From IMG/VR virus record IMGVR_UViG_3300036770_005357: 64,000 nt of DNA. One strand, 5' to 3'. The stretch comes from a virus (taxonomy: Duplodnaviria > Caudoviricetes). Every line of letters starts with the position of its first letter. Position 1 is the stretch's first letter. The translations under genes and the position numbers were made by a program. This document shows positions 3,730-18,769 of the stretch, piece after piece. Under the pieces are notes generated by a model. It searched no databases and had not been told where the DNA came from. It worked only from the letters and a program-made list of their open reading frames with translations.

Positions 3730-3990
3730 ATTACGGATAAGAGTGTATCAGGTTTTTTGGTAGTGTCAACAGCTTTTTTATTCGGTATAGTCGGTCATGC
3801 GACTGTTACGGAGGAGGAAGGCTTCAAAGGCGTCCATGTCGGTGGTTTCGTCTTCGGTGTAGATCTCTTCAACGGAGATCCGGACCATATCGTGGAGTTC
3901 GTTGTCGGTGTTGGTGTTGTTGATGTCGTTCATTGTGGGAACAGTGTAGACGAACTGTATGGGAAGTCAAGCCCCTCTTGAACTATTTTT

Positions 3991-4179
3991 TTAGACACCG
4001 GCGACAAATCCAGCCCGCTTGTTACGCTCCCACATCACATCCTCAAGCGTGAACCAAGCTCCATCCCTGCGACGAGGATGATTAGCAACATCAGCTTCCA
4101 GCTTATTTACATAATCTTGATCCACCTCATTCCAACCAAAGCTAGCACATTGATAATAAGTGTCGTTGATACAAACAAT
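3991..4179 (-). pseudogene. Orphaned 3' half of a YodL-like gene (homologous to the C-terminus of 5024..5380)
   Basis: Translates IVCINDTYYQCASFGWNEVDQDYVNKLEADVANHPRRRDGAWFTLEDVMWERNKRAGFVAGV*, with no start codon and an in-frame TAG just upstream. Confidence 0.8.
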
Positions 4180-4221
4180 GTTTTTGTAACTTTTTATCTA
4201 TCTTGGTAATACTTATATCAT

Positions 4222-5052
4222 ATGACTATTACAACACAAGGCGGCATCTATAAAATTGTCAACAAACTAAATGGAAAATATTATGTTGGTAGGACCAAAA
4301 ACTTTAAGAAGAGATGGTATGATCACAGGAAACGATTGCGGAAAAACTGTCACATAAACTCACATTTACAACGTGCGTGGAACAAAGATGGAGAACATTC
4401 ATTTGAATTTGTAATTACGGAAATTATTGATGTCACAATTTGTCATAAAGAAACCGAACAAAAGTATATAGATCAACTTATTGAAGATCGCAAAAATGGA
4501 ATCGACAATAGTTATAACATTAGTGAAAGTTCAGATGGACCAACATTATTCGGTAACAAAAATGGAATGTTTGGTAGAAAACACAGCAATGAGTCCAAAA
4601 ATTTAATGTCTAACAATAGACGAGGTAAAAAACATACCGAAGAAACTAAAAAAATGTGGAGTGAACGTCGAAAAGGAAAACCTTCGTGGAACAAGGGGAT
4701 GGAAATGTCAGAAGAATATCGTAAAAAATTATCTATTATCAGAAAAGGCAGAAGACATTCTGTAGAGACTAAAAGGAAAATTTCGTTATCTCAACTTAGA
4801 GAAAAAAATCACCGATTTGGCAAGCGACCAACAGAAAATCAAATAAACAAAATGGTTGATGTTATAGTTGATAAAACTATTTACACTTGGAAAAATGACA
4901 AGTTGTTACGTACAGAAAATATGACCCGAAGAGATTTTTATAAAAAATACAACATACCAGCATCCAACATATGTGATCTTATTAAAGGAAAAAGAAAATC
5001 TGTTTATGGATGGTATATTGAAACTAGTTCGCCCAACGGGGTTCTCGTATAA
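4222..5052 (+). mobile_element. Free-standing GIY-YIG homing endonuclease with NUMOD3-like repeats
   Basis: GIYKIVNKLNGKYYVGRT, R..H, F.F..E, YN motifs; MFGRKHSNESK/KKHTEETK/RHSVETK repeats; AT-rich and antisense to neighbours. Confidence 0.92.
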
Positions 5053-5380
5053 CAGCATTCAAAGCAAACCACGATCCGTTAATACGATTTGGATGGTTTG
5101 AAACCGCATTCTCTAATTCATTAACTTCTTCGGGAGTAATTTCTTTCCATCCAAGCGATTTACACATATGATATCTGCCATTGATACAAACTACATCTCC
5201 AACGCTGAGTGAACGAATATTGCTATTACGAAATAGTTCACATTCATTAGGCGATCCAGAGTTCCATTGATCAAAGACCATTTCAAGCAGATCGTGGTGA
5301 TCGGTAGCCTTATCGGTTTTGATGACGAAGCTAGCGGTGAACTCATCGGGATAGATGACGGTGATCTTGTTGTTTTTCAT
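5024..5380 (-). CDS. YodL-like domain early protein
   Basis: RSLSVGDVVCING motif; own promoter copy. Confidence 0.55.
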   Translation of the reverse strand: MKNNKITVIYPDEFTASFVIKTDKATDHHDLLEMVFDQWNSGSPNECELFRNSNIRSLSVGDVVCINGRYHMCKSLGWKEITPEEVNELENAVSNHPNRINGSWFALNAVIREPRWAN

Positions 5381-5425
5381 TGTGGAAACAGTATACAGGC
5401 TCTAGTGAGGAAGTCAACAGCTTTT

Positions 5426-5671
5426 TTAACCGAGGACCAAGAAATTCTTCCTTCCATTCTCAGCCACCTCGTTCAGTGCCTCAGCATCCCACTCTCCATT
5501 CATCATTAGAGCTTGCCAACGAATCGTCTTGGCTACAGCCTCCAGAGTCGTGTGTACCGGCTTAAAGCTTGCCAAACCGTATCCGTAGAGGATGGAGTCG
5601 TCCACATTGGACAGATCACGGTTGAAATCCTTGGCGATGGCGAAGGCCTGTTGGAACTGGTTCAGTGTCAT
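5426..5671 (-). CDS. Hypothetical early protein
   Basis: ORF with a promoter-like TTGACG-N17-TACCTT upstream. Confidence 0.6.
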   Translation of the reverse strand: MTLNQFQQAFAIAKDFNRDLSNVDDSILYGYGLASFKPVHTTLEAVAKTIRWQALMMNGEWDAEALNEVAENGRKNFLVLG

Positions 5672-5686
5672 TGTGGATATAAGGTA

Positions 5687-5911
5687 TCAGAAGGGATCCG
5701 ATTCGTCAAGCTGTTCTTTTTCCGATTCACTGAAGATTTCGTCTTGACATTTCTGACAGAGTGCGCTTATATAGTATTCTTCAGCTGAGACTACATCTTT
5801 GAAGGTATCTGCACTTTTACCACAAGAGACACATTGATGAGTTGCTAATGCTAAATTGAAGCTTCTACCGAAGAAAGACAGACTGAACTCATCTCGTATG
5901 TCTATGTACAT
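5687..5911 (-). CDS. Small Zn-binding protein (CxxC...CxxC)
   Basis: CVSCG...CQKCQDEIF. Confidence 0.6.
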   Translation of the reverse strand: MYIDIRDEFSLSFFGRSFNLALATHQCVSCGKSADTFKDVVSAEEYYISALCQKCQDEIFSESEKEQLDESDPF

Positions 5912-6486
5912 AAAATAAACTGGGGTTTTATAATATATAGGATCACCCCAAACCTTTTTATATTGTTAAGCCTTGATTGGCTTTTCAGGCATCTTGGCCT
6001 TATCAGCCCAATCAAATGAGAAGATACCGAGTAGTGTACAAAGTGTAGACAATCCTGTTTGATCTGTATAAATCCAAGCCAATCCAAAGAAGATGGCGGG
6101 ACTACAAATAGTAAAGATTGTTAGCAGTACCTTACCGTAATATTCAATTTTGTCAAACATAGTATTTCCTTTCAGTTTTTGTTTTGTTTTATTCTCCCTC
6201 CTGATTATCATTATTCAGTGACTTACGCAAATCTCGCTTGTTTCTAGTACGATCTCGTTGATGCTTAATTTGCTTTTCCTTACGCCTAGCCCGTATCTTA
6301 TGTTTATCACTCATCGTAGTTCCTTCCCCATTTGTTCTTACGGTTATAAACCTTCTTACTAGCTACAATCCTCATACGAGGATCCATGTTCCACTCTTTC
6401 CTAACTTTGATCTTCATCATAAACAGTTTATATTAAAGTTTTGGTTTGTCAAGCCTATGTTGATCGTAGTTTACAATCAAAAGTAA

Positions 6487-6510
6487 AACATAGCGTTAAT
6501 ATGCGCTATG
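6487..6510 (-). terminator. Rho-independent terminator
   Basis: CATAGCG-catattaa-CGCTATG followed by TTTT on the minus strand. Confidence 0.6.
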
Positions 6511-6519
6511 GCAACCCTT

Positions 6520-6726
6520 TTACATACACTGATATTGTTCACTCTGGGTCCAGTTATTGTACCAATTCTGATAATCCTCCTTTACTTGATTATGAGGTAC
6601 CTGCTTGACAATCGTCTTGCTACCCCATACATGTCCGAGGTTCACGGTATTCTTGAACACAGCCCTAACTCGCATATGTACCTTACCGTACTGAACCACA
6701 TCACCAACAACCAATTGCTTATTCAT
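6520..6726 (-). CDS. Hypothetical early protein
   Basis: 68-aa ORF after a promoter copy. Confidence 0.65.
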   Translation of the reverse strand: MNKQLVVGDVVQYGKVHMRVRAVFKNTVNLGHVWGSKTIVKQVPHNQVKEDYQNWYNNWTQSEQYQCM

Positions 6727-6809
6727 ATTGTGAGACTAGTCTACACCAACCACAGGAGATGTCAAGCGGGGTTTTACAGGATCACCCCAAACCTTTCCTA
6801 CCGAACCAC

Positions 6810-7376
6810 TTACACCGCCTCATACACAAGCGAAGGCTTTCCACGACCTTCAGCCTTCTCTTTTCCTACAACAGTGACAACCCCCGATTTTACCCACTGC
6901 CTCACAACAGGATACAACTGAGGCTGATTGTAACCTGTAGAACTTACAAGAAACTTCATCGTAAAGCGTTTGCCTGTAGGAGGTTGTACATCCACCTTAG
7001 CCTTTGGCCGTCTACCCTTGTTGGGTTTACCGGTTCTGGCAGCCTCTTCCTTTGCGTCTTGGCTGTCCTTGGATTTCTTTAGGAGCTGTTCGTACCGTTC
7101 CTCAGCCGCTTCCTCTGTACGACAGTCAAAAGCGATTTTACCGAATGCGGCACTGCCGGGATATTGGATACGATCTTCCTTTTCTACAGCGCCGCCTGGA
7201 AGAGGAGTGCCTTTTGCGATAAACTTTCCAATGAAGACTTCGTAACCCTTGAGGGTACCGTCCATGCGTTCACGTCGGTACATATATACATTACCCTCTT
7301 TCTTTATTTGGATAAATGTATTGTCACCGACACCATCACAGTTCTTGACAAACTTCTTTGGTAGATCCTTGATCAT
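6810..7376 (-). CDS. Early protein with probable C-terminal winged helix-turn-helix
   Basis: C-terminal helices followed by a GRGKPSLVY wing motif; ATG 6 nt after the -10 box. Confidence 0.55.
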   Translation of the reverse strand: MIKDLPKKFVKNCDGVGDNTFIQIKKEGNVYMYRRERMDGTLKGYEVFIGKFIAKGTPLPGGAVEKEDRIQYPGSAAFGKIAFDCRTEEAAEERYEQLLKKSKDSQDAKEEAARTGKPNKGRRPKAKVDVQPPTGKRFTMKFLVSSTGYNQPQLYPVVRQWVKSGVVTVVGKEKAEGRGKPSLVYEAV

Positions 7377-7406
7377 AAAAACAGTGTATCAGGGTTTTAG
7401 GGTCTG

Positions 7407-7703
7407 TCAAGCCTCGTCGTTGGAATTGAATGGGGCGACCTTGTAGGTTGTATCAAGGTACTTGCCTTTGGGAAATTCGTCTGTAAACTCTTCAATTGGG
7501 TCATATTCGGGCTGAAAGTCTGGGAACTTGGCTTTGATTTCAGCATGGATTTGATTCATAAAATCAATCTTTTGGCTGTACAGCGCAATATCTTCGGGAG
7601 AAGGAGTTGGTAGATTTGCTACATATTCGGACAGTTCCTTATGATACTGTTCGTCCATAGCTTGTTCTTGTTCGGGCGTGAGTTCTTGGTTATCTTGGTT
7701 CAT
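7407..7703 (-). CDS. Acidic hypothetical protein
   Basis: 98-aa ORF. Confidence 0.55.
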   Translation of the reverse strand: MNQDNQELTPEQEQAMDEQYHKELSEYVANLPTPSPEDIALYSQKIDFMNQIHAEIKAKFPDFQPEYDPIEEFTDEFPKGKYLDTTYKVAPFNSNDEA

Positions 7704-7707
7704 ATAA

Positions 7708-8043
7708 TTAATGGGAGGTAGAGTTAGTGTTACAGTTAGTTACATTAGAAACAGTAGCATTACATGCGCAAATCTTCAAGCATTTCATTTGCGGTTGAAA
7801 GACGAATTGATCATTACCCCAAACAGATTCATTGAATGTCTTGATCAGGCCGTAATCAATATCAAAGTAAGTGACATTATTCATTTGATCTTTGAAGATG
7901 ATGCCTTTGAATGCTGTATTGAGGTTTTTGTAGAAACCGACTGGGCCTTTATCAGCGATTGAATAACCGTTACATTGGAATGGCAGGTTATCTTTACTAT
8001 TGGTTGGTTCAAACTTAAAAGTAGCGGTTTTATTATTTCTCAT
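7708..8043 (-). CDS. Hypothetical early protein
   Basis: 111-aa ORF after a promoter copy. Confidence 0.55.
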   Translation of the reverse strand: MRNNKTATFKFEPTNSKDNLPFQCNGYSIADKGPVGFYKNLNTAFKGIIFKDQMNNVTYFDIDYGLIKTFNESVWGNDQFVFQPQMKCLKICACNATVSNVTNCNTNSTSH

Positions 8044-8078
8044 ATCGTGGGAACAGTCTACAGGCTTCTACAGGGAAG

Positions 8079-8273
8079 TCATGGAGTATCTTGATCTAGT
8101 TTAATATGATAATGTGAATTAACCGCATCAGCTAACATTTCAATTGCGTTAATCAAATGGCTCAATGTGGATTCCACGGCGGGATCAGTAGGATGTTCGG
8201 CTCCGATACGATAACAAGATTCTTTGGCTTGATCCAACGCTTTGTCAAAAGCTTTTAAATTAATTTCGGTCAT
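8079..8273 (-). CDS. Hypothetical coiled protein (true start probably MTEINLK)
   Basis: The track start at 8318 coincides with the -35 box; the ATG at 8273 follows the promoter. Confidence 0.55.
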   Translation of the reverse strand: MTEINLKAFDKALDQAKESCYRIGAEHPTDPAVESTLSHLINAIEMLADAVNSHYHIKLDQDTP

Positions 8274-8386
8274 ATTTAATTTACTTTTTAAGTCTACCAG
8301 CTTTTTTCTAGAAGTCAATGGGAAAAATATAACAAGTTTTCAGGATCTCACTCACATTCACCATATGGTGATAGCGATATGTTCCC

Positions 8387-8454
8387 TATAAGTCCCTAGG
8401 AATTGAACCTAGTCTCCTGTAATTACCGGCGCATTACCCGAATGCTGAACTTAC
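8387..8454 (-). ncRNA. tRNA-like element with aberrant anticodon arm
   Basis: Acceptor GTAAGTT/GACTTAT, D-like GCA-TTCGGGTAA-TGC, T arm CTAGG-TTCAATT-CCTAG; anticodon arm shortened and mismatched. Confidence 0.55.
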
Positions 8455-8481
8455 GCGTCTATCTGTACCTTGTTATTTATA

Positions 8482-8553
8482 TAGTATACAGAGGATTTGA
8501 ACCTCTCATTCACCACTGGTGATCAGCTCAGTTTAGAATGACCGCCTGTATAT
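8482..8553 (-). ncRNA. Second tRNA-like element with aberrant anticodon arm
   Basis: T arm AGAGG-TTCAAAT-CCTCT, acceptor TATAC/GTATA, TCACC-AGT-GGTGA hairpin in place of an anticodon arm. Confidence 0.5.
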
Positions 8554-8571
8554 ATTATACAAAAAAATCTA

Positions 8572-8729
8572 TGTTTGAGGCAAGAGCATTTCTACATATT
8601 CAGCGGCAGTTTATTAATGGTGTAACATTAACACTTGCATCACAGATATAATTACACTCATATCTGATCTAACGCTAGATAAGTATCTCTCTGTTGCATC
8701 TCAATTACCTTTCGGTAACACCCCAAACA
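8572..8729 (-). ncRNA. Unclassified structured RNA, about 158 nt
   Basis: Closing stem TGTTTGGGG/CCTCAAACA; internal TTACC-GAAA-GGTAA, CAGATAT/ATATCTG and TTAATG/CATTAA hairpins. Confidence 0.5.
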
Positions 8730-8735
8730 AAATTG

Positions 8736-8831
8736 TTTTGGATTCATGCGGTGTATTGGTTATTTTCCGATCCGCAGTGTCCATCCCCTAAACCAATAGG
8801 TGACACCTTTCATTAGCGGTTGAACCCAAAA
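8736..8831 (-). ncRNA. Unclassified structured RNA with kissing loops, 96 nt
   Basis: Closing stem TTTTGGGTTCA/TGAATCCAAAA; hairpins GTGTC/GACAC and TGCGG/CCGCA; loops TTGGTT and AACCAA are complementary. Confidence 0.6.
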
Positions 8832-8852
8832 ATTATTAAAAGAACTAAAATT

Positions 8853-9061
8853 GTTGATATAGAGGGATTGATTACCCTCACGAAGTTTGGTGGTTGCCCT
8901 TGCTAAAGTTTCTTTCAAGTTATTTCCTTGTGTATGTTTGCTTTAACTCTTCTGTATTATTTCAAATACATTCAGATGATTTTTCATTGAGTTTAACCCC
9001 AACAAAGTCAGACTATTGTCATTAGTCCTATCACCTTGCGTCTATTTCCGCCATATATCAA
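8853..9061 (-). ncRNA. tRNA-Leu-like ends enclosing a long insertion
   Basis: 5' TGATATA-TGGCGGAAATAGACGC and 3' GAGGG-TAATCAAT-CCCTC-TATATCA resemble tRNA-Leu halves; about 150 nt lie between them. Confidence 0.55.
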
Positions 9062-9079
9062 AAAGAACAAAAAAATTGG

Positions 9080-9198
9080 TTTGTTAGCTTCGATGACCGC
9101 ATTTAACTGCCTGTATTATACCCCTACTGGGCGATTACCGACAATCGTGTCGGCATCATTCTCCGTCTACTCATATAATACCATCTATAACTAACAAA
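9080..9198 (-). ncRNA. Unclassified structured RNA immediately 3' of tRNA-Asp
   Basis: Closing stem TTTGTTAGT/GCTAACAAA; nested TATTATA/TATAATA, CCGAC-ACGATT-GTCGG and GCA-GTTAAA-TGC. Confidence 0.5.
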
Positions 9199-9200
9199 AG

Positions 9201-9276
9201 TGGCGGTCTATACGAGATTCGCACTCGTTACTGAATCGTGACAGGATTCTATGATAAACTCATTCAACAATAGACC
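9201..9276 (-). tRNA. tRNA-Asp(GTC)
   Basis: GGTCTAT/ATAGACC acceptor, GAATC-CTGTCAC-GATTC anticodon arm, ACGAG-TGCGAAT-CTCGT T arm, G73 and encoded CCA. Confidence 0.9.
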
Positions 9277-9284
9277 AAAATCTT

Positions 9285-9382
9285 AAGATTGACATCCAAG
9301 TATTTATCAGTGAATCGTAACCCACTGCCCTCTATTTCTTGGTTTTCCGGATAACAACCGGATGAACTTAATCGTCAATCTT
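9285..9382 (-). ncRNA. Unclassified structured RNA, 98 nt
   Basis: Closing stem AAGATTGAC/GTCAATCTT; CCGG/CCGG, CCAAG/CTTGG and CAGTG/CACTG stems; promoter-like TTTACA-N16-TAAGAT just upstream. Confidence 0.55.
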
Positions 9383-9438
9383 GAAAATATCTTATCAGAA
9401 CTTTCTGACTTGTAAAGAACTTTTTTTAAAATCTTTGG

Positions 9439-9530
9439 GGTTGAGGGTGACTGCGCCAGTCGGAGCGCTCTCTTTTACAGTTAAGTAAACCGTGCGGACT
9501 GTTCCCCTACACCAAGTCACCACCTCAACC
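9439..9530 (-). ncRNA. Unclassified four-way-junction RNA starting at a promoter TSS
   Basis: Closing stem GGTTGAGG(T)GGTGACT/AGTCACCCTCAACC with three hairpins; CAGTC and GACTG loops complementary; begins 8 nt after the -10 box at 9539-9544. Confidence 0.65.
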
Positions 9531-9764
9531 TTGAAAATAGTCTACCAGCTTTTTTCTAGAAGTCAACAGATTTTTTAACGGTACTTCAGGCGGATGAAGA
9601 TTTCCTTGTTCTCCTCCAAAACCGTGTCAAGAATCTTGCCGCAGAACTCGCGCCATTCAGTCTCGGTAACTTGTCCGGTTTGGAACTTGCGGAACATGAT
9701 GTCGTATTCGTTCTTCATCGTGAAAACAGTTTACCAGCTTTCTTGGAGAAGTCAACCGCTTTTT

Positions 9765-10166
9765 TTAAAATCCAGCGTATTCCAGTGTATTTCTGATTTT
9801 GGAGTTAATAAACCCCGTTACCTCAACAAATCCATTATCAATCTCTTTCGTTTCAATCTTGAAAGTGAGTTTGGTTTTGGCGAATGGCTTATTTGTTTGA
9901 TGATCTAATGGCGTCGTGGTCAACAAAACCTTGCCGTCATACTTATTCATCAAATAATCATTTTCACTATCTTCACCATCCAAATTCAAGAAGATCGGCC
10001 TGCCATTCTCAATACCAGAAGCAAATGTAATATCAAATAACTTCTCAACAATCTCTACACTGCCACGATTACCGAAAATTTCATCTGTTAACTCCTGTAG
10101 AGTTTCTTGATTATCTTTTTCATTGGAAACTGTAAAGTCAAAATAATAAGTATGATTTGTCTTCAT
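9765..10166 (-). CDS. Hypothetical early protein (start MKTNHTY)
   Basis: ATG 9 nt after a promoter -10 box. Confidence 0.65.
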   Translation of the reverse strand: MKTNHTYYFDFTVSNEKDNQETLQELTDEIFGNRGSVEIVEKLFDITFASGIENGRPIFLNLDGEDSENDYLMNKYDGKVLLTTTPLDHQTNKPFAKTKLTFKIETKEIDNGFVEVTGFINSKIRNTLEYAGF

Positions 10167-10212
10167 CGTGAAAACAGTGTACACCAACCACAGAAGAAGT
10201 CAACCGCTTTTT

Positions 10213-10398: not shown

Positions 10399-10431
10399 CG
10401 TGGAAACAGTATAGACTACCCATAGGAGATG

Positions 10432-11264: not shown

Positions 11265-11276
11265 ATAATTAATATA

Positions 11277-12650: not shown

Positions 12651-12768
12651 CGTTTACCTACTGTACCACGGGGTTATAAAAAGTCAAGCCTCCCACGCAA
12701 CTTTTTTCACTTTTCCTCTACTTTTACTCCTCTACTTTTATATATATTAGTAGAGGAAATTATAATAT

Positions 12769-13647
12769 ATGGACAACAATATAAACCAAACTATAATAGA
12801 AAAAGTAGCAATCAAAAGCGTGGCAATATATAAAGCAATAGCTATGTTACCACCACCAGAAATAAAGGACTTATGGGCAGAAAACAATTATACAAAACAG
12901 ACGCAGAACGACTTGAAGCTAGACGCGAAAGACAATTGCGTTACTATGAAAAAAACAAAAACAGAATTAACGCCGGTAGATTGGAAAGATATTACAAATC
13001 AAAACAAGAGCGGGATTTATAAAATAATAAACAAGATTGACGGCAAGTATTATGTAGGTAGAAGTTCCAATATTAAAAAAAGATGGAGATCTCATCGTAA
13101 TCTTTTAAGACAAAACAAACACAGTAATTGTCACCTACAAAGGGCTTGGAATCGTGATGGGGAATCGTCATTTGATTTTATTTTAGTTGAAGAAGTAATA
13201 CCGGATAAAAATATTCTAATAGATGTTGAAACTCGGTACATTAATAAGTTTGTAAATGATAGGAAAAACGGCATTGACGATTGTTACAACTTAAGCTTAA
13301 GTGCGGTTACAGGAAGTGTACCCGGTAATCAACACAGAAAAGGAAAACCTCATTCAATTGAAGATAGATTAAAAATATCTAAGGGACTGTTAGGCAACAC
13401 GAATACTAAAGGTAAATCTATTTCCGAAATACACAGACAAAAAATTATAATGAATGCGCCTAAAGGCAAAAATAATCATGCATTCAATAATAAAATTTAT
13501 AACTTCTTCAACAAAAATACAGGCGAAAGTTTTAGTGGTACACTCAGTGAACTTTTACAAAAAGAAAATATAAAAATAAATTCAGCGTTTCATAGAGTTA
13601 TCCGTGGCGAAAGAAATCATTACAAAGGATGGATATATAAACCCTAG
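12769..13647 (+). mobile_element. GIY-YIG homing endonuclease (probable real start MKKTKTEL near 12946)
   Basis: SGIYKIINKIDGKYYVGRSS; catalytic domain closely resembles the 4222 enzyme. Confidence 0.9.
12873..13025 (+). CDS. Small basic MGRK-type ORF overlapping the GIY-YIG 5' end in another frame
   Basis: Manual translation MGRKQLYKTDAERLEARRERQLRYYEKNKNRINAGRLERYYKSKQERDL*; homolog at 18970. Confidence 0.65.
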
Positions 13648-13653
13648 AATGTC

Positions 13654-13845
13654 TCAATCCTCTGTATCAGCTTTTTCTACAGTGGGAGAGATGATGGGGA
13701 TACGGACAGTGAAGATGATGCGGCTAATTTCGTTGAAGACGATCTTGACAAAAGTGACCGTCAACAAATAAATCAACAATACAAAGGCAATTGCCATACA
13801 GTAATTGCTGATACTAGATGTAATATGTTTAAAAAACTCAGTCAT
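13654..13845 (-). CDS. Small membrane protein
   Basis: Hydrophobic central helix. Confidence 0.5.
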   Translation of the reverse strand: MTEFFKHITSSISNYCMAIAFVLLIYLLTVTFVKIVFNEISRIIFTVRIPIISPTVEKADTED

Positions 13846-13872
13846 ATTAATTATGAATAGTGTTCTTGATTA

Positions 13873-14157
13873 TCAAAACCAGTAATACATTTCTATAGCT
13901 TCAGAACAGCGTGCTTTTGACCACAAAGCAGCAGACTTTTTCGCTATTGATTTGGTATTGTCACTTTCATCATATTCAAAATAATTCCGTTTACCACCGG
14001 GAGAAAATGCAACATATTGCATGTTATCAACATCGTGCCAATACTTTCCTTTAGCAAGTTGTTTTGCTTGTTTTACTTCAACCTTAGTAGCAAATTTACC
14101 ACTATATGGATTATATGGATTTATACAACCCGCTATAAACTTCTGTCGGCTAGTCAT
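13873..14157 (-). CDS. Hypothetical protein
   Basis: 94-aa ORF. Confidence 0.55.
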   Translation of the reverse strand: MTSRQKFIAGCINPYNPYSGKFATKVEVKQAKQLAKGKYWHDVDNMQYVAFSPGGKRNYFEYDESDNTKSIAKKSAALWSKARCSEAIEMYYWF

Positions 14158-14192
14158 ATCTTTTTATAGAATAAGGGGTATCCGCCTAAATG

Positions 14193-14519
14193 TCAAGCAA
14201 CCTTTGCTTCAATCTCAGCCAGTTTCTCAGCGGGAATCAAGCTAATAATTTGACGGGAATACTTAGGAAGCTTACGAAAAGCAATAACAAGTTGTTTAGG
14301 ACTAAGTGTGCGACCCTTGTTAATCTGTTCAGCAAACGAACTTAGTATAAAAGCATCAGTACCGTTGTATCCAACGCCATTGTCGTGTCCCGTGTTTTGA
14401 GCAATCTGCTCGTCAGTCGTCTGCCTCTCCCAGAGCTTCACGATAGCCCTCGTAGCCCAAGTCGGATTGGAGGAGAGCTGCTGCTTCACATATTCAACCA
14501 CTTTCGGATTCAGTTTCAT
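14193..14519 (-). CDS. Conserved phage hypothetical protein
   Basis: EQ...NGVGY...DAFILSSFAEQ...LSPKQ pattern; own promoter. Confidence 0.65.
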   Translation of the reverse strand: MKLNPKVVEYVKQQLSSNPTWATRAIVKLWERQTTDEQIAQNTGHDNGVGYNGTDAFILSSFAEQINKGRTLSPKQLVIAFRKLPKYSRQIISLIPAEKLAEIEAKVA

Positions 14520-14578
14520 CGTGGAAACAGTCTACAGGCTTCTAGGGAGAAGTCAAGCGGTAAAAACAAAAAAACTAA

Positions 14579-14605
14579 CAGAAAATTAATCCGTTAGCTT
14601 TTACA
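14579..14605 (-). terminator. Terminator hairpin, duplicated at about 15120-15146
   Basis: AGCTAACGG-attaatttt-CTGTTAG followed by a T tract on the minus strand. Confidence 0.65.
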
Positions 14606-14624
14606 AAAATATGTTTATAACTTG

Positions 14625-15008
14625 TTATTTACCAAATATTCCAATTTTTCCCATTTGTGATTGAAGAACTGGATTTATTTTCTTCAAAACATCTTTGCCC
14701 GTTGGAATGACTCCACCCCACGACCCTGAATATTTCACTTTTACACGATCATTTCCATCCGGTTCAATTTTTATCATAAAATCTGGGGATTTTTTGGATG
14801 TTATTATGATAGTATTTATGGCAGTATCAATACGCACAAGTAAGTCTCTGTCTATGAGAAGAATGTTACCTTTAAGATCATAAAACAATCTGTCAATTAT
14901 AGATTCAATGTTTGATCCACCAGAAGTACTACGAGTGTCTGATGTATCATCTTCATTTAGGTTTAGAAGACATTCTTTGATTAACATTTTTAGTTGGGTT
15001 CTAGTCAT
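14625..15008 (-). CDS. Late-type protein with MTRTQLKMLIKE tag
   Basis: AT-rich ORF, TATTTATA motif upstream (15031-15038). Confidence 0.65.
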   Translation of the reverse strand: MTRTQLKMLIKECLLNLNEDDTSDTRSTSGGSNIESIIDRLFYDLKGNILLIDRDLLVRIDTAINTIIITSKKSPDFMIKIEPDGNDRVKVKYSGSWGGVIPTGKDVLKKINPVLQSQMGKIGIFGK

Positions 15009-15180
15009 AATTTATATATTGGTTATTTGTTATAAATATACGAAAAAAAAAAATAATAAAAAAATTTACTCGTACAGTTTACTAGCTTTTTTGGGGAAGT
15101 CAAGCGGTAAAAACAAAAAAGCTAACAGAAAATTAATCCGTTAGCTTTGTAATTAATTATAATGATTTAAGTTTAATCCA

Positions 15181-15465
15181 CTACCCGAACAGATCGAAAT
15201 CATCAAAATTATCAACATACCAACTAAAATGACGGGCAAAAGAACGAAAAATGTCAGCCGCTTTGGTTTTTGCTTTTTGAGCTAGATCGGAAAATTGTTG
15301 TTTTTTGACAGGATCGTTTGTTTTCTTACTCAATTCACGATATTCATCTTCCTTTTTTTTCAAAGTAGAATAAGCTAATTTTGCTTTGTTAATCGTGGAT
15401 TTGTCATGATCACTATTTTCAATAATTACTTCTTTGATAAGTTCTTTAAGTTCTTTTTTAGTCAT
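15181..15465 (-). CDS. Late-type protein with MTKKELKELIKE tag
   Basis: TATTTATA motif at 15470-15477. Confidence 0.7.
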   Translation of the reverse strand: MTKKELKELIKEVIIENSDHDKSTINKAKLAYSTLKKKEDEYRELSKKTNDPVKKQQFSDLAQKAKTKAADIFRSFARHFSWYVDNFDDFDLFG

Positions 15466-15520
15466 ATACTATAAATATATGAGAAAAAAATAATTACAGA
15501 TTATAAAACTTTTATAGATA

Positions 15521-15742
15521 TTATTTTGCGTAATGTATTTTATTAGTGCAATTACCTTTATGTATTAATGTCCAGCCACCTATTTTACCGTTATAAGTCT
15601 GAATATACTCACAACCATCTATAACTTTATTTATATTGGTAGGTATCATCATAAATATAATAACAGAAATAATAATAATGCCCAAGTAAATCAAAGTTTC
15701 ATGCGTTATAAATGCTTTGTTTTTCATAGTTGCTTCTTTCAT
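15521..15742 (-). CDS. Small membrane protein, paralog of 40963..41157
   Basis: TM helix then IDGCEYI...LIHKGNCTNKIH, matching IDNCQYI...LTHKGNCTNNIH. Confidence 0.65.
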   Translation of the reverse strand: MKEATMKNKAFITHETLIYLGIIIISVIIFMMIPTNINKVIDGCEYIQTYNGKIGGWTLIHKGNCTNKIHYAK

Positions 15743-15800
15743 CACGAGAACAGTCTACAGTTTTCTAGGGAGAAGTCAAGCCCCCTTTTTTGGGGGAAAT

Positions 15801-15878
15801 TGGTGGGCCTTGAAGGATTTGAACCATCACTCTCAGCAATTATGAGTTGCGTGTTTTAACCAATTAAACTAAAGGCCC
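15801..15878 (-). tRNA. tRNA with CAT anticodon, probably Ile2 (or Met)
   Basis: GGGCCTT/AAGGCCC acceptor, CTCATAA loop, TTCAAAT T loop, ACCA end; own TTGACA-N17-TACAAT promoter. The acceptor resembles Ile2 tRNAs. Confidence 0.85.
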
Positions 15879-16083
15879 GTTATCTAAAAACTATTGTATC
15901 AAACAACTATGCTTTTGTCAAATACTCAAAGTTCGGTATAACAAACACTCACTGTACGACAATCGCCTTTGTAACGCTTGTACGCTTTTTGTTCTGCTTG
16001 ATTATGGTTGGCAGCCTTAATGTAGCCAACTTCTACGCCGTTGTAATAAACAATAAATGTCTTCATATCTTTATCAGTAGTTA

Positions 16084-16281
16084 TCAATAATCATATCCAC
16101 GCTCAATAGCATCAGCACAACTATTGCAAATAGCATACTGAGGCTGTATGTTCACCATACGATCACATCGCTTACACCGCTTAGCAACATTCGTACGCTG
16201 ACACTTATGATAGTAATCAACCATCTCAGGCTCATCCATGTTGCTCCAAGTGCCATAATTGTCGTCACAGTAGGTTCTCAT
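16084..16281 (-). CDS. Small Zn-ribbon protein
   Basis: CKRC...CNSC. Confidence 0.6.
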   Translation of the reverse strand: MRTYCDDNYGTWSNMDEPEMVDYYHKCQRTNVAKRCKRCDRMVNIQPQYAICNSCADAIERGYDY

Positions 16282-16336
16282 TGTTTTAATAGTCTATCAG
16301 CTTTTTTTAATTTGTCAACAGCTTTTTTTAGAGAAA

Positions 16337-16436
16337 GTATCAATTCGGTTGCATCACACCTAATTTATTCTGCAATGCTTTGAGGACAGGCTCTCCATCC
16401 TCATCCGCTAGGCTACGGATTCCACCGAATTGACAC
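16337..16436 (-). ncRNA. Stand-alone cloverleaf-like ncRNA, 100 nt
   Basis: 13-bp closing stem GTGTCAATTCGGT/ACCGAATTGATAC with three hairpins; promoter TTGACA-N16-TATTTT directly upstream; no ORF. Confidence 0.7.
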
Positions 16437-16464
16437 CACCAAAATATCAGACTTTTTTAATCTG

Positions 16465-16695
16465 TCAAGCCTTCGGACACTGTTGAAACTCAAGACTCGG
16501 CGCAATCTTCTCCATCACCCTCATCGCTTCGTCCCGACTGTACACCTGAAAAAACAACTCTCCATCTCCACGATACAACCTCCACACCAAACGCTCACGG
16601 TTGTACATCACATACCCAACAATCACCCCTTGGTTGACCAGCGCATCCACCGGTTTTCCGTCAATCTCAGTCACCGTCCAGTTCATCGTTTTCAT
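16465..16695 (-). CDS. Hypothetical early protein
   Basis: ORF after a promoter copy. Confidence 0.6.
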   Translation of the reverse strand: MKTMNWTVTEIDGKPVDALVNQGVIVGYVMYNRERLVWRLYRGDGELFFQVYSRDEAMRVMEKIAPSLEFQQCPKA

Positions 16696-16729
16696 TACGG
16701 GAAACAGTCTACCAGAAATCTTCAGTCTG

Positions 16730-17005
16730 TCAAGCCCTCACCGTCAACTCGTTCAGCTGTTGAATGGTAGCCCCGCTCATCTCAACCGCCCAATGAACAT
16801 GGTTCATTGCCTCCTTCTTCTTGATTGAATGACCCAGAAACTTAGCACCGTCACCAGTTCCATGATACATTCGCCACCAGTTCTTGCCGTGCTTAGTATC
16901 AACAGGCTTATCAATCATACCCACAGCCTCACCCGCTTGATTGAAAGCGACATGAAGGTTAGGAATCGTGCTCTTGATCTTCTTCCAAGTGATGTAAGTA
17001 ATCAT
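16730..17005 (-). CDS. Hypothetical early protein
   Basis: ORF after a promoter copy. Confidence 0.6.
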   Translation of the reverse strand: MITYITWKKIKSTIPNLHVAFNQAGEAVGMIDKPVDTKHGKNWWRMYHGTGDGAKFLGHSIKKKEAMNHVHWAVEMSGATIQQLNELTVRA

Positions 17006-17415
17006 ATTACGGGATACAGTGTACCAGCTTTTTTTAAGCTGTCAAGCGCTTTTCGGGCTGATAAGTGACGATAGGCGCTGGTTGGATATTCATCGCCGTC
17101 ATCTTGTCAACATAATCACACCACAACAGATAGTTTCGCTGGCCAGACTTCTTGGTTTTGTTCTTCTTCATATTACGGGTAAGAGTGTATCAGGTTTTTT
17201 TCGGTTGTCAAGCCCCTTCAGTCCTCGTCAATCATGGAGTCGTCCACCTCAAAGCTGCCCTCAATGTAGCTGCCATCCTCAGGCAATGGAGCACCCTTAG
17301 CCTCATGTATTGCTTCAGCTACACTGTCAGCCTGCACTTCTACATAACCATACATCTGCCAAACAACAGGTACACGATAGGTTTTCATTGCGGTCATATC
17401 TTTATTTATTTAATT

Positions 17416-17691
17416 TCAGAACCAAAACTCAATACCAATAGTGTCACCCTTGCTATCAAACTGTAATACACCATCCACAACATTACCCACAATATCAAGA
17501 GAAAAACTCAAATCACCCTCCAATACCAACTTGCTATCAGTAATCTCAAAATCCTCAATCTCATATCCATCAGTATCACCATTAAAGTAATACATAACAG
17601 ACGACGGCATATCATTGCCAAATGTATCAACACACTCATTCAAATACTCACGAATCGTCATAGTAACAGTCTCAGTTTTCATTGCATGCAT
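17416..17691 (-). CDS. Acidic hypothetical protein
   Basis: ORF after the promoter at 17716-17743. Confidence 0.6.
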   Translation of the reverse strand: MHAMKTETVTMTIREYLNECVDTFGNDMPSSVMYYFNGDTDGYEIEDFEITDSKLVLEGDLSFSLDIVGNVVDGVLQFDSKGDTIGIEFWF

Positions 17692-17731
17692 ATCTTTATT
17701 TATTTAACGGTTAATAGTCTATCAGCTTTTT

Positions 17732-17965
17732 TTAATCTGTCAAGCCCCCAGTCATCACCTCAATGTCCATCTTCGTCTCACCCTGTAGTGTTTGCCAACG
17801 ATACCCCGACAAATACTCGTTCACCTGCTCCTGCGTCATATCCACAGCCTCCACCCGACGAGATTGATAGGTAGCACCCTCAAAGTAATGAGGACGAATG
17901 TCACGCCCATACCACTTGTCAGCCCTGCCCCGATCCCACGGTCCTCCATGTCGTTCGTTCATCAT
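17732..17965 (-). CDS. Conserved phage hypothetical (HGGPWDRG.AD..YGR)
   Basis: Motif; ATG after a promoter copy. Confidence 0.6.
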   Translation of the reverse strand: MMNERHGGPWDRGRADKWYGRDIRPHYFEGATYQSRRVEAVDMTQEQVNEYLSGYRWQTLQGETKMDIEVMTGGLTD

Positions 17966-18137
17966 GTACACACTCTACACTGCCCACCGAAGAAGTCAAG
18001 CTCCTCCAACCACTTTTTTTAAACTTCTTCCTTTATCGTTAAATTTACCCCACCCCACCCAATACCCTACCGAGACACCATCCAACAAACCAAAGAGGGC
18101 CTGGCGCAATCCTGGCGCTGCCAGGCCCCCGTCAACC

Positions 18138-18443
18138 TCAGACACCAGCCAGACTTTCCAGCTGGGTGTACTCCACACCCTCCTTGGGCGTCCAGTAGAG
18201 ATCCCGCTCGATCTTGAGGCCAAACGGTCCACGAACCGCCTCCAGACCCTCTAGAGACTCAATGCCACCCCATTCCACGCAACCCATACCCAGATCGGCG
18301 TAACCGTAAAGGATGCCATCCTCCATACCAGTGATCAACCAGGTGGCACGACCCCAAGGGGTGAACAGCTTGCAGATCGGATTCGTGTTGTTGTAGCCAG
18401 CCTTGTTGAGCTTGGCAGTCAGTTGTTTCGTCAGTAGCTTCAT
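18138..18443 (-). CDS. DUF2958-like protein
   Basis: KLFTPWGRATWLIT...YGYADLGMGCVEWG...IERDLYW; ATG at 18443 follows a promoter. Confidence 0.7.
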   Translation of the reverse strand: MKLLTKQLTAKLNKAGYNNTNPICKLFTPWGRATWLITGMEDGILYGYADLGMGCVEWGGIESLEGLEAVRGPFGLKIERDLYWTPKEGVEYTQLESLAGV

Positions 18444-18477
18444 CGTGAGACAGACTCTAACAGCTTTTTTTAAAGTG

Positions 18478-18696
18478 TCAAGCCTCCACCAGTTCAACGG
18501 CAGTCAGCTTACCCTGAGCGATTCGGTAGTTCACCGGATCCTCGCTCTCAGCAGCCCGCACATCCTCAACCATCCACCAACGCATCCGAGTCTGCATCGC
18601 ACTCTCAAACGCTTCAACCTCGGTAGCAAACCGAAGACCATTGGTGGCCCACTTACCCTCTACCTTCACTTCCGGCTTCCATGACTTGTTGTTCAT
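18478..18696 (-). CDS. Hypothetical early protein
   Basis: First cassette of the minus-strand block. Confidence 0.6.
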   Translation of the reverse strand: MNNKSWKPEVKVEGKWATNGLRFATEVEAFESAMQTRMRWWMVEDVRAAESEDPVNYRIAQGKLTAVELVEA

Positions 18697-18769
18697 ACGG
18701 GACACACTCTACACTGCCGACCGAGGAAGTCAAGCCCCCCTTGAACTTAAAAAAAGTGCTAGGTAGCGC

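What the first reader, a model, noticed from the sequence alone, without database searches (positions are those of the whole stretch)
3730..18733. 15-kb array of one-promoter-one-gene cassettes with an invariant 16-bp spacer
About 25 promoters with the same geometry head almost every short gene or RNA. Some are near-identical over 28-40 bp (10396 vs 10675; 8291 vs 9539). This resembles T4-type PeSL shuffling cassettes and the SPO1/T5 host-takeover modules, where repeated promoters also act as recombination points for gene exchange. The 16-nt rather than 17-nt spacing is unusual and may reflect the host sigma factor. Cargo includes YodL-like and DUF2958-like domains, known from counter-defence polyvalent proteins.
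Basis: partly seen in the sequence, partly recalled or inferred. Interest (0 to 1): 0.7.

Follow-up and report, generated by a model that had tools for sequence, protein, structure and literature searches.

The report
Promoter-fused early gene cassettes in phage
A large uncultured lake phage related to T4 drives about 30 small early genes each from its own copy of one strong bacterial-type promoter set directly against the start codon, and natural variants show that genes are lost, gained and moved by recombination inside these promoter copies; this is a variant, without ribosome-binding site or stem-loop, of a gene-shuffling cassette already known in T4-type phages.

Summary
There are 24 minus-strand sites TTGACW-N16-TAnAnT between 3742 and 18733, plus 2 on the plus strand. 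The whole window has 28, against 1.1 expected.

The mRNAs should therefore be leaderless or carry a 0-5 nt leader. No RNA data exist, so transcription starts are inferred.

The recombination idea is supported. Six metagenome contigs at 89-99% identity, and contigs from four freshwater runs, show cassette losses and a relocation. The crossovers lie in register inside two promoter copies. 13 of 31 breakpoints fall within 10 nt of a promoter, against 3 expected. A GIY-YIG homing endonuclease with its flanking -35 box sits before four different genes.

Most units have no stem-loop and none has an SD, so this is a variant of PeSLs, not a member. DUF2958 is confirmed; YodL is not.

The phage's ammonium transporter gene points to a Verrucomicrobiota host. 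MAGs of that phylum also favour the 16-nt spacer and show a leaderless signature.

This scan has already reported the same kind of array in several other freshwater T4-like phages.

The parts
3136..18733 (-). whole early cassette array: about 33 small ORFs plus RNA genes, all on the minus strand, about 30 promoters
18478..18733 (-). cassette: promoter 18706-18733, ATG 9 nt after the -10, 72-aa ORF
   Evidence: homologues in L007, L010, L012
18138..18481 (-). cassette: promoter 18454-18481, ATG at 10 nt, 101-aa DUF2958 protein
   Evidence: sits at two alternative sites in relatives
17732..17999 (-). cassette: promoter 17972-17999, ATG at 6 nt, 77 aa
17416..17743 (-). cassette: promoter 17716-17743, AT-rich 24-nt leader, 91 aa
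17218..17397 (-). 59-aa ORF without its own promoter; same AT-rich leader as the gene before it
17034..17211 (-). cassette: promoter 17184-17211, ATG at 12 nt, 45 aa; absent here and re-sited in variants
   Evidence: (joint 17036>17203)
16730..17045 (-). cassette: promoter 17018-17045, ATG at 12 nt, 91 aa
16465..16733 (-). cassette: promoter 16706-16733, ATG at 10 nt, 76 aa
   Evidence: joint 16312>16728
16337..16468 (-). promoter 16441-16468 (TTGACA-16-TATTTT) followed by non-coding sequence
   Evidence: an earlier first-reader note calls it a cloverleaf-like RNA, not tested here
16084..16318 (-). cassette: promoter 16291-16318, ATG at 9 nt, 65 aa
15801..15921 (-). promoter 15893-15921 (17-nt spacer) and tRNA-Met 15801-15878
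15521..15779 (-). cassette: promoter 15752-15779, ATG at 9 nt, 73 aa
14559..15736 (-). low-GC (0.28) block of three genes (15521-15742, 15181-15465, 14625-15008); absent from L037, with the crossover between promoters 14529-14556 and 15752-15779
14625..15103 (-). promoter 15076-15103, 67-nt AT-rich leader, 127 aa; terminator-like hairpin 15118-15148 just upstream
14193..14556 (-). cassette: promoter 14529-14556, ATG at 9 nt, 108 aa (about 80% identical in relatives); hairpin 14570-14602 upstream
13873..14196 (-). cassette: promoter 14168-14196 (17-nt spacer), ATG at 10 nt, 94 aa; absent from L038 and L036
13654..13845 (-). 63-aa ORF with only a weak promoter-like site
12769..13647 (+). GIY-YIG homing endonuclease gene, GC 0.32; absent from L025, L026, L027, L037, L038 and one X5 contig; its 5' flank plus the -35 box is found before four different genes
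11277..12687 (-). cassette: promoter 12660-12687, ATG at 9 nt, 457-aa superfamily-2 helicase
10992..11303 (-). cassette: promoter 11274-11303 (18-nt spacer, inside the helicase 3' end), ATG at 9 nt, 90 aa
10749..10776 (+). plus-strand promoter (TTGACC-16-TATAGT), divergent from 10687-10714
10432..10714 (-). cassette: promoter 10687-10714, ATG at 9 nt, 81 aa; absent from L025 and from X5/X6 contigs
10213..10435 (-). cassette: promoter 10408-10435, ATG at 9 nt, 61 aa
9765..10203 (-). cassette: promoter 10176-10203, ATG at 9 nt, 133 aa
9575..9755 (-). cassette: promoter 9728-9755, ATG at 9 nt, 47 aa; absent from L025, with the crossover in TTGACTTCT
8329..9566 (-). promoter 9539-9566 heading an ORF-free stretch that holds tRNA-Asp 9201-9276; the tRNA is absent from contigs of all four runs laid
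8079..8318 (-). cassette: promoter 8291-8318, 17-nt leader, 64 aa; replaced by other sequence in L026, with the break inside the promoter
7708..8082 (-). cassette: degenerate promoter 8055-8082 (ATGACT-16-TAGACT), ATG at 11 nt, 111 aa
7407..7703 (-). 98-aa ORF without its own promoter
6810..7410 (-). cassette: promoter 7383-7410, ATG at 6 nt, 188 aa; in L026 a homing endonuclease with its own promoter replaces this promoter
6520..6765 (-). cassette: promoter 6738-6765, ATG at 11 nt, 68 aa; hairpin 6489-6510 follows
6307..6452 (-). cassette: promoter 6425-6452, ATG at 4 nt, 37 aa; the promoter is absent from X5, X7 and X10 contigs (joint 6423>6520)
5426..5709 (-). cassette: weak promoter 5681-5709 (TTGACG-17-TACCTT), ATG at 9 nt, 81 aa
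5687..6211 (-). two ORFs (5966-6211, 5687-5911) without a recognised promoter; 5687-5911 and 5024-5380 are in swapped order in G001, G002 and G004
5024..5417 (-). cassette: promoter 5390-5417, ATG at 9 nt, 118 aa
4222..5052 (+). second homing endonuclease gene (GIY-YIG type by PHROGs), GC 0.33; contigs of all four runs lack about 4180-5205
3778..3970 (-). cassette: promoter 3943-3970, ATG at 9 nt, 51 aa; in an X5 contig it follows the 13654 gene instead (joint 3950>13654)
3211..3769 (-). last cassette: promoter 3742-3769, ATG at 12 nt, 172 aa
3136..3163 (-). 12-bp G+C-rich terminator-like hairpin closing the array
18770..18797 (+). divergent plus-strand promoter of the same class, followed by non-coding sequence
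18902..19783 (+). third homing endonuclease gene (weak PHROGs match to endonuclease VII; an earlier first-reader note calls it HNH), GC 0.34
19698..19725 (+). second plus-strand promoter of the same class, followed by a paralogous non-coding element

Best explanation
This is the early, hyperplastic region of an uncultured freshwater T4-type giant phage.

Expression (inferred):
- Host sigma70-type RNA polymerase fires about 30 copies of one strong promoter (TTGACW, 16-nt spacer, often TGn-extended TAnAnT, A-tract upstream).
- Each copy is fused to a start codon 4-12 nt (mode 9) after the -10 box, with no Shine-Dalgarno sequence.
- Each small gene is therefore made as its own leaderless or 0-5-nt-leader mRNA. 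If translation depends on a 5'-proximal AUG, that explains why every gene needs its own promoter.

Recombination:
- The same unit of about 45 nt (GC, -35, spacer, -10, CA start site, ATGAA) is the homology at which cassettes are deleted, inserted, replaced and moved. Each event leaves a chimeric but intact promoter. These steps are shown by comparing natural variants.
- Homing endonuclease genes that travel with a flanking promoter add further breaks at the same sites.
For: Promoters:
- 28 sites against 1.1 expected, 24 on one strand within 15 kb.
- Spacer 16 in 24 of 25 strict sites.
- T/G enriched at the two positions before the -10 box, and an A-tract upstream.
- The same motif heads tRNA-Met and ORF-free stretches, so it is a transcription signal, not a translation signal.

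Start-codon geometry:
- The ATG of the downstream ORF lies 4-12 nt after the -10 box in 20 of 24 sites, and exactly 9 nt in 11.
- In nine related loci the distance is 9 nt in 31 and 10 nt in 13 of 86 sites.
- No purine-rich SD is present anywhere.
- C and A are conserved at positions 6 and 7 after the -10 box, the usual -1/+1 pair.
- Pfam DUF2958 and the helicase homologues align from residues 2-5, which supports these start codons.

Unit and lineage:
- The composite unit recurs in 14 IMG/VR contigs and in none of 185,579 species genomes.
- A syntenic relative carries T4 Gp23.

Recombination:
- L025 lacks cassettes 9577-9720 and 10441-10672.
- L037 lacks 14559-15736.
- L027 lacks 17048-17167 and has that cassette re-sited.
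- Three of these four junctions are switches of homology within the -35/spacer of two promoters, in register. At the 10441-10672 junction in L025 the upstream side is unrelated sequence, and the break lies at the upstream edge of the -35.
- The same junctions appear in Logan contigs of independent freshwater runs. Joint 17036>17203 has sides of 183-206 nt in two studies, and 16312>16728 shares only the 6-nt -35. These overlaps are too short to be k-mer assembly chimeras.
- 13 of 31 unique breakpoints lie within 10 nt of a promoter, against 3.0 expected (P < 1e-4).
- More distant relatives keep a backbone order but swap two cassettes and place DUF2958 at two sites.

Host mode, conditional on the host guess:
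- The phage Amt is 61-78% identical to Verrucomicrobiota proteins.
- In five such MAGs, spacer 16 gives 32 hits against 6 (N17) and 5 (N18).
- 11 of those 32 hits have an ATG 6-13 nt after the -10 box.
- 400 kb of one MAG shows a TAnnnT peak 6-7 nt before ATGs and no SD peak.
Against: - No transcription start was mapped.
- The modal -10-to-ATG distance is 9 nt. In organisms with proven leaderless mRNAs it is 6-8 nt (PMC12340547; PMC6028130). The conserved CA at positions 6/7 predicts a 3-nt leader, and in Caulobacter and E. coli even short leaders depress leaderless initiation (PMC8459731).
- Several genes in the array have no promoter of their own, or have 17-67-nt AT-rich leaders. 5'-end-independent, SD-independent initiation must therefore also work.
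- Intergenic space here is almost entirely promoter. Enrichment of breakpoints at promoters could partly reflect survival of only intergenic breaks.
- Four of the events involve homing endonucleases.
- The host is inferred from one auxiliary gene, and the candidate MAGs have about 59% GC against 32% for the phage.
Confidence: 0.7

Rival explanations
1. The promoters are real, but they are not the recombination substrate. Breakpoints map there because only intergenic breaks survive selection, and because homing endonucleases cut next to promoters so that double-strand-break repair with co-conversion creates the mosaics.
For: Three homing endonuclease genes lie in the array. Endonuclease-free alleles exist for two of them. 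The same endonuclease 5' flank plus -35 box is joined to four different downstream genes, with the junction anywhere from the -35 to the ATG. Intergenic DNA here is nearly all promoter.
Against: Several cassette losses or gains (9577-9720, 14559-15736, 17048-17167, 16313-16727) have no endonuclease nearby. Each is an exact in-register switch between two promoter copies sharing 6-24 nt at the crossover. That pattern is the signature of homology-guided exchange, not of random intergenic breaks.
Confidence: 0.25
2. The transcripts are not leaderless in the functional sense. Transcription starts at the conserved CA 7 nt after the -10 box, giving 3-5-nt leaders, or genes are also read from run-through polycistronic RNA. 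Translation would then use an SD-independent, 5'-end-independent mechanism typical of the host, relying on an unstructured A-rich start region.
For: The modal distance is 9 nt, not 6-7, and C/A is conserved at positions 6/7. Genes with 17-67-nt AT-rich, SD-less leaders and genes without promoters are present in the same array. Few terminators lie between cassettes. The whole window lacks SD sequences.
Against: The tight clustering of the ATG at 9-10 nt in the window and in relatives of about 70% nucleotide identity is hard to explain if the 5' end were irrelevant. The candidate host lineage shows a leaderless-type -10 peak before start codons.
Confidence: 0.3
3. The motif is read not by the unmodified host sigma70 holoenzyme but by a phage-directed polymerase form (phage sigma or activator), or it doubles as an operator for a phage repressor that shuts early genes off.
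For: Conservation extends beyond the hexamers into the spacer (TCT.C, A-run, CTGG) and into GTTT.CA after the -10 box. That is more than sigma70 needs. The exact composite unit is absent from 185,579 bacterial and archaeal genomes.
Against: Both hexamers and the TGn extension match the sigma70 consensus. The extra conservation is explained by common descent of a repeat family, which has two sub-families. Candidate-host MAGs carry the same -35/16/-10 arrangement before their own genes and tRNAs.
Confidence: 0.1
4. The variant junctions are assembly artefacts caused by repeats.
For: All relatives are metagenome contigs, and some promoter pairs share about 44 nt.
Against: The same junctions occur in contigs from different pipelines and studies. 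Several crossovers share only 6-11 nt, below any assembler k-mer. Chimeric promoters are internally consistent, and both flanks run for hundreds of bases at 95-99% identity.
Confidence: 0.03

Closest known systems
PeSLs (promoter-early stem-loops) of T4-type phages RB49/phi1, T4/PST, KVP40/nt-1 (Arbiol et al. 2010, PMC2839356; Comeau et al. 2014, PMC4122927)
   Same: Both are repeated strong sigma70-like early promoters with an A/T-rich upstream part. Both sit before ORFans in a hyperplastic region of a T4-type genome. In both, indels and replacements between close relatives are bounded by the units and leave one chimeric unit.
   Different: Most units here have no stem-loop or terminator, and none has a Shine-Dalgarno sequence. 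The start codon is fused 4-12 nt after the -10 box, so the unit carries the translation start as well. The spacer is 16 nt. Mini-circles were not tested.
Leaderless genes with a -10 box next to the ORF in Deinococcus-Thermus and Actinobacteria (PMC12340547; GeneMarkS-2 group C, PMC6028130)
   Same: A TAnnnT -10 element lies directly before an AUG, with no SD.
   Different: In those organisms the distance is 6-8 nt and a -35 box is often missing. Here the mode is 9 nt, a perfect -35 box is always present, and the units form a repeat family in a phage.
Thermus phage phiYS40 leaderless middle and late transcripts (Sevostyanova et al. 2007, J Mol Biol 366:420; recalled from my own knowledge, paper not held)
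   Same: A large phage in which many transcripts start at or next to the start codon.
   Different: phiYS40 belongs to a different phage group and host. In my recollection the leaderless transcripts there are middle and late classes and do not form a recombining repeat family.
Integron gene cassette arrays (own knowledge)
   Same: Rows of single-gene cassettes are gained, lost and reordered at a repeated short site.
   Different: Integron cassettes are promoterless, are moved by an integrase at attC/attI sites, and share one promoter. Here each cassette brings its own promoter, and exchange appears to be homology-driven and aided by homing endonucleases.
SPO1 host-takeover module and T5 pre-early region (own knowledge)
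   Same: Both are clusters of small early genes behind multiple strong host-type promoters.
   Different: No sequence relation was found. A position in a terminal repeat and a host shut-off function were not tested.

Membership tests
PeSL (promoter-early stem-loop) cassettes | strong sigma70-consensus early promoter, repeated many times | tested here: met
   28 sites against 1.1 expected; conserved unit of about 45 nt
PeSL (promoter-early stem-loop) cassettes | AT-rich tract upstream of the -35 box | tested here: met
   A predominates at positions -10 to -5 before the GC-TTGAC in about half of the 26 sites
PeSL (promoter-early stem-loop) cassettes | stable stem-loop (terminator or attenuator) in or next to each unit | tested here: not met
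   Only four minus-strand terminator-like hairpins lie in the array (3136-3163, 6489-6510, 14570-14602, 15118-15148). Folding of the promoter cores gives z-scores between -1.5 and +1.5.
PeSL (promoter-early stem-loop) cassettes | Shine-Dalgarno sequence and start codon at the 3' end of the unit | tested here: not met
   The start codon is present but no SD. Only 4-12 nt of pyrimidine-rich sequence lie between the -10 box and the ATG.
PeSL (promoter-early stem-loop) cassettes | location in a hyperplastic region of a T4-type genome, before ORFans | tested here: met
   Of the 29 minus-strand ORFs scanned, only two have a Pfam family. Cassette content varies among relatives. Gp23 is present in the syntenic relative G001.
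PeSL (promoter-early stem-loop) cassettes | indels and replacements between close relatives bounded by the units, leaving a chimeric unit | tested here: met
   In-register crossovers and chimeric promoters; 13 of 31 breakpoints within 10 nt of a promoter against 3.0 expected
PeSL (promoter-early stem-loop) cassettes | excised mini-circles carrying one cassette and one chimeric unit | not testable with these tools
   Only assembled contigs were available. The 'goes back' joint 17408>17086 is explained by a re-sited cassette in L027.
Leaderless mRNA genes | transcription start on, or within a few nt of, the A of the AUG | not testable with these tools
   no RNA data available
Leaderless mRNA genes | -10 box 6-8 nt before the start codon | tested here: inconclusive
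   Mode 9 nt, range 4-12 in 20 of 24 sites. In relatives the mode is 9-10 nt. Three sites are at 4-6 nt.
Leaderless mRNA genes | AUG start codon and no SD | tested here: met
   All starts are ATG and no purine-rich tract is present
Cargo: DUF2958 (PF11171) | Pfam match above the gathering score | tested here: met
   ORF 18138-18443: 77.3 bits against a cut-off of 21, E = 1.5e-21
Cargo: YodL-like domain | Pfam match | tested here: not met
   No hit in the 29 ORFs of 59 aa or more that were scanned, at E <= 0.01 or <= 0.1. The four ORFs of 51 aa or less were not scanned.
SPO1/T5 host-takeover module | position in a terminal repeat; products that shut off the host | not tested
   genome ends and protein functions unknown

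The most novel reading that the evidence does not exclude
The promoter-start unit of about 45 nt may be a self-contained 'express and recombine' module of a T4-like phage lineage that probably infects Verrucomicrobiota. It would supply transcription and 5'-end-dependent translation to any ORF placed behind it. It would also be the crossover site for cassette exchange and the landing site of GIY-YIG homing endonucleases that travel with a promoter copy. The early region would then work as an integrase-free, integron-like gene-capture platform. Its GC-rich cassettes (0.40-0.48 against 0.33 for the rest of the phage) would be tuned to the host tRNA pool before the phage's own tRNAs are made.
Probability: 0.3. 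Interest if true: 0.75.

Novelty: new variant of a known kind. Interest (0 to 1): 0.6.

Why it matters
The finding extends PeSL-type modular shuffling from coliphages and vibriophages to a deep-branching freshwater T4-like lineage. It shows the process caught in natural populations, with base-level crossovers inside promoters. It suggests that a whole class of phage early genes is expressed without ribosome-binding sites. This matters for gene calling in metagenomic phages, where start codons are set by the promoter. It also matters for understanding translation in SD-poor hosts such as Verrucomicrobiota, and the compact promoter-start unit could serve as a portable expression part. The link between homing endonucleases and promoter copies offers a testable mechanism for how accessory early genes, likely host-takeover and anti-defence factors, turn over.

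Tried and rejected
- Megablast of 3700-18800 and of 22000-44000 against 50,697 GenBank phages found no match.
- No whole genome is held for the window.
- Sequencing runs: no RNA holder was listed, so expression and transcription starts could not be examined.
- Only contigs could be laid, so molecule ends and mini-circles cannot be read.
- The phiYS40 paper (PMC1885378) is not held.
- Literature searches for leaderless early promoters in T4-like phages or cyanophages returned only method citations.
- A stem-loop as a regular part of the unit was rejected after folding all 24 sites.
- A Bacteroidota-type promoter (TTTG / TAnnTTTG) was considered and rejected on inspection, because the motif does not fit.
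- An archaeal TATA-box reading was rejected, because the motif lies too close to the ATG.
- The exact composite pattern was sought in 185,579 species genomes as a host clue and gave no hits.
- The reversed-pattern control counts in the MAG spacer scans vary from 19 to 51, so only the comparison between spacers is used.

Full report
**1. What is there**

A scan for TTGACW-N16-TAnAnT finds 28 sites in the 64-kb window, against 1.10 expected.
- 24 sites are on the minus strand between 3742 and 18733.
- Two more, at 18770 and 19698, point the other way at the upstream edge of the array.
- With the same hexamers, spacer lengths of 13-15 and 18-20 give no minus-strand hit in the region, and 17 gives one, the tRNA-Met promoter at 15893-15921.

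An alignment of the 26 sites shows a unit of about 45 nt. It runs GC, then the -35 box, TCT.C, an A-run, CTGG (a TGn extension of the -10 box in most copies), TAnACT, then GTTT.CA.. and ATGAA. There are two sub-families: TTGACA with an A-run spacer, and TTGACTTCTCC.

All about 33 ORFs of the array are on the minus strand. A 12-bp hairpin at 3136-3163 closes the array.

Three plus-strand genes interrupt it. All three are homing endonuclease genes: GIY-YIG at 12769-13647 and 4222-5052, and a third at 18902-19783 with a weak endonuclease VII match.

**2.

In 20 of 24 sites, the ATG of the downstream ORF begins 4-12 nt after the last base of the -10 box. In 11 sites the distance is exactly 9 nt.
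- Degenerate promoters with 17- or 18-nt spacers show the same distance: 11274-11303, 14168-14196, 8055-8082 and 5681-5709.
- The few bases in between are pyrimidine-rich, so there is no Shine-Dalgarno sequence. The rest of the window also lacks one.
- The start codons are credible. Pfam DUF2958 and the helicase homologues align from residues 2-5.
- The motif also heads tRNA-Met and ORF-free stretches. It is therefore a transcription signal and not a translation signal.

The inference is one short transcript per gene, leaderless or nearly so.

The caveat is quantitative. Proven leaderless genes have the -10 box 6-8 nt from the start codon (PMC12340547; PMC6028130). Here C and A are conserved at positions 6 and 7 after the -10 box. 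That predicts a start at this A and a 3-nt leader for the 9-nt class. In Caulobacter and E. coli such leaders reduce leaderless initiation (PMC8459731). No RNA data were available, so the exact 5' ends remain inferred.

**3. Relatives**

The composite pattern (promoter plus GTTTYCMCRATG) occurs in 14 IMG/VR contigs and in none of 185,579 bacterial and archaeal species genomes.
- Four larger viral contigs carry 11-23 copies of the promoter with the same A-run/CTG spacer.
- One of them, G001, is syntenic with the window and encodes a T4-type Gp23 capsid protein. The lineage is therefore T4-like.
- In nine related loci the -10-to-ATG distance again peaks at 9-10 nt, in 44 of 86 sites. Some of these loci were found through one such site, so they are not fully independent.

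**4. Is the promoter a recombination point?**

*Distant relatives (about 70-75% nucleotide identity).*
- They keep a backbone order: 18478, 16730, 14193, 13654, helicase, 10992, 7407, 6810, 3211.
- They swap the 5024 and 5687 cassettes.
- They place the DUF2958 cassette at either of two sites, or at both in L007.
- They carry many private cassettes.

*Close relatives.* Six metagenome contigs at 89-99% identity were examined at base level.
- L025 lacks 9577-9720 (the 47-aa gene). Homology switches from one promoter to the next within TTGACTTCT.
- L025 also lacks 10441-10672 (the 81-aa gene). There the upstream side is unrelated sequence, and the break lies at the edge of the -35 box.
- L037 lacks 14559-15736. 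This is a three-gene block of 28% GC. The switch lies within 24 shared bases of promoters 14529-14556 and 15752-15779.
- L027 lacks 17048-17167 (the 45-aa gene), with the switch at the -35 box. It carries that gene upstream of 17218-17397 instead.

*Independent runs.* Logan contigs from four freshwater runs of four studies show the same junctions and others.
- 17036>17203, with sides of 183-206 nt in two studies.
- 16312>16728, where only the 6-nt -35 box is shared.
- 6423>6520.
- 3950>13654, with 16 other bases between.
- 17193>16313.
- 10437>19696.

These overlaps are far shorter than assembler k-mers, and the junctions recur across pipelines. They are therefore real variants.

*Statistics.* Across eight close contigs, 13 of 31 distinct homology breakpoints lie within 10 nt of a promoter, against 3.0 expected. 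Most of the rest lie at endonuclease ends or in the RNA gene stretch.

*A fair objection.* Intergenic DNA here is almost all promoter, so selection alone would place surviving breaks there. The in-register chimeric promoters are what argue for homology-guided exchange.

**5. Homing endonucleases**

About 110 nt upstream of the GIY-YIG gene at 12769, together with the adjoining -35 box, are 96-98% identical in L017 and L027 and recur in L026. They are fused to four different downstream genes.
- In the window: the helicase.
- In L017: the homologue of 13654.
- In L027: an unrelated ORF.
- In L026: gene 6810-7376.

The junction lies anywhere from just after TTGACTTT to just before the ATG.

Alleles without the endonuclease exist for two of the three genes.

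So endonuclease genes move together with a promoter copy. They probably contribute breaks at these sites. Whether they cut the promoter unit itself is untested.

**6. Comparison with PeSLs** (PMC2839356, PMC4122927)

Features shared with PeSLs:
- a repeated sigma70-type early promoter
- an A-rich upstream tract
- a position before ORFans in a plastic region of a T4-type phage
- indels bounded by the units, leaving a chimeric unit

Features not shared:
- The stem-loop that gives PeSLs their name is missing from most units. Only four terminator-like hairpins occur, and folding gives no signal.
- The Shine-Dalgarno sequence is missing from all units.

Mini-circles could not be tested.

I therefore call this a new variant of a known kind, not a member. 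I found no description of such leaderless units in the papers searched.

This scan has already reported very similar arrays in several other freshwater T4-like phages (e1-5380404, e1-5380411, e1-5363537, e1-5401032, e1-5352689; e1-5392633). Within the scan it is not a first sighting.

**7. Host and the 16-nt spacer**

The phage's ammonium transporter (49636-51093) is 61-78% identical to proteins of Verrucomicrobiota MAGs, with Limisphaerales and Pedosphaera at the top.

Five such MAGs were scanned with the strict pattern at four spacer lengths.

| Spacer | Hits | Reversed-pattern control |
|---|---|---|
| N15 | 19 | 51 |
| N16 | 32 | 19 |
| N17 | 6 | 22 |
| N18 | 5 | 37 |

- Of the 32 N16 sites, 11 have an ATG 6-13 nt after the -10 box. 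One reads ...CCACGATG, like the phage unit. Two precede tRNAs.
- In 400 kb of one MAG, TAnnnT peaks 6-7 nt before the first ATG of long ORFs (25 hits against 2-3 per position). SD-like words show no peak.

This fits a host lineage that uses 16-nt promoters and leaderless, SD-free genes. It rests on one auxiliary gene, and the MAGs have 59% GC against 32% for the phage.

The early cassettes have 40-48% GC, whereas the endonuclease genes, the 14559-15736 block and the late region have 28-34%. The early genes may be tuned to the host's tRNA pool. This is inference.

**8. Cargo**

DUF2958 is confirmed. The largest gene is a superfamily-2 helicase. No YodL-like domain was detected in the ORFs scanned. 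Almost all other products have no family.

**9. Verdict**

The PeSL-like recombination reading is supported by natural variants. The mechanism of expression (leaderless or a very short leader) is strongly suggested by the geometry but unproven. It is a new variant of a known kind, of moderate to good interest.

Noticed in passing
window 24843-24857, 27592-27606, 28175-28190, 30389-30403, 42307-42323 (+) and 15466-15484 (-): A second promoter-like motif, TATATTTATA, lies 4-6 nt before the ATG of six genes. It resembles the T4 late promoter TATAAATA and would also give leaderless mRNAs. One copy drives gene 15181-15465 inside the early array.
   Followed up: partly
window 3211-18733 versus 20000-64000: Early cassettes have 40-48% GC. 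The homing endonuclease genes, the 14559-15736 block and the rest of the window have 28-34%. This may be adaptation of early genes to the tRNA pool of a GC-rich host before the phage tRNAs are expressed.
   Followed up: partly
window 49636-51093 (-): A phage-borne ammonium transporter (Pfam E = 8.5e-114) is 61-78% identical to Verrucomicrobiota (Limisphaerales, Pedosphaera) proteins. It is a host clue and a nitrogen-uptake auxiliary gene.
   Followed up: partly
window 9198-9286: tRNA-Asp (9201-9276) is absent, replaced by 4 bases, in contigs of all four freshwater runs laid. The region 9061-9411 is also missing from L026. The tRNA is a strain-specific insertion in an ORF-free RNA gene stretch.
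   Followed up: partly
window 10749-10840, 18770-18870, 19698-19790 (+): Three plus-strand promoters of the same class are each followed by a related non-coding element of about 70 nt, divergent from the early promoters. The element is conserved in relatives. Other notes of this scan cover it.
   Followed up: no
L017 (IMG/VR contig, 4907 nt) versus window 10447-14556: The flanking genes are 90-98% identical in DNA but the helicase between them only 74%. The allele was replaced, with boundaries at the gene's promoter and at its 3' end.
   Followed up: partly
L027 7306-7547 and L037 1846-2087 versus window 16068-16081: Both close relatives carry an extra cassette of about 240 nt with a promoter copy like 16291-16318 at a place where the window has 13 nt.
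   Followed up: no
window 17398-17420 and 17692-17715 (-): Two neighbouring genes share the same AT-rich, SD-less leader ending AAATAAATAAAGAT before the ATG. This hints at a second, 5'-end-independent way of starting translation in this phage.
   Followed up: no
G007 (Limisphaerales MAG), 400 kb of contig 14: The MAG shows a TAnnnT peak 6-7 nt before ATGs and no SD peak. Leaderless, SD-poor gene starts may therefore be common in this Verrucomicrobiota lineage. The GeneMarkS-2 paper's main text does not mention the phylum.
   Followed up: partly
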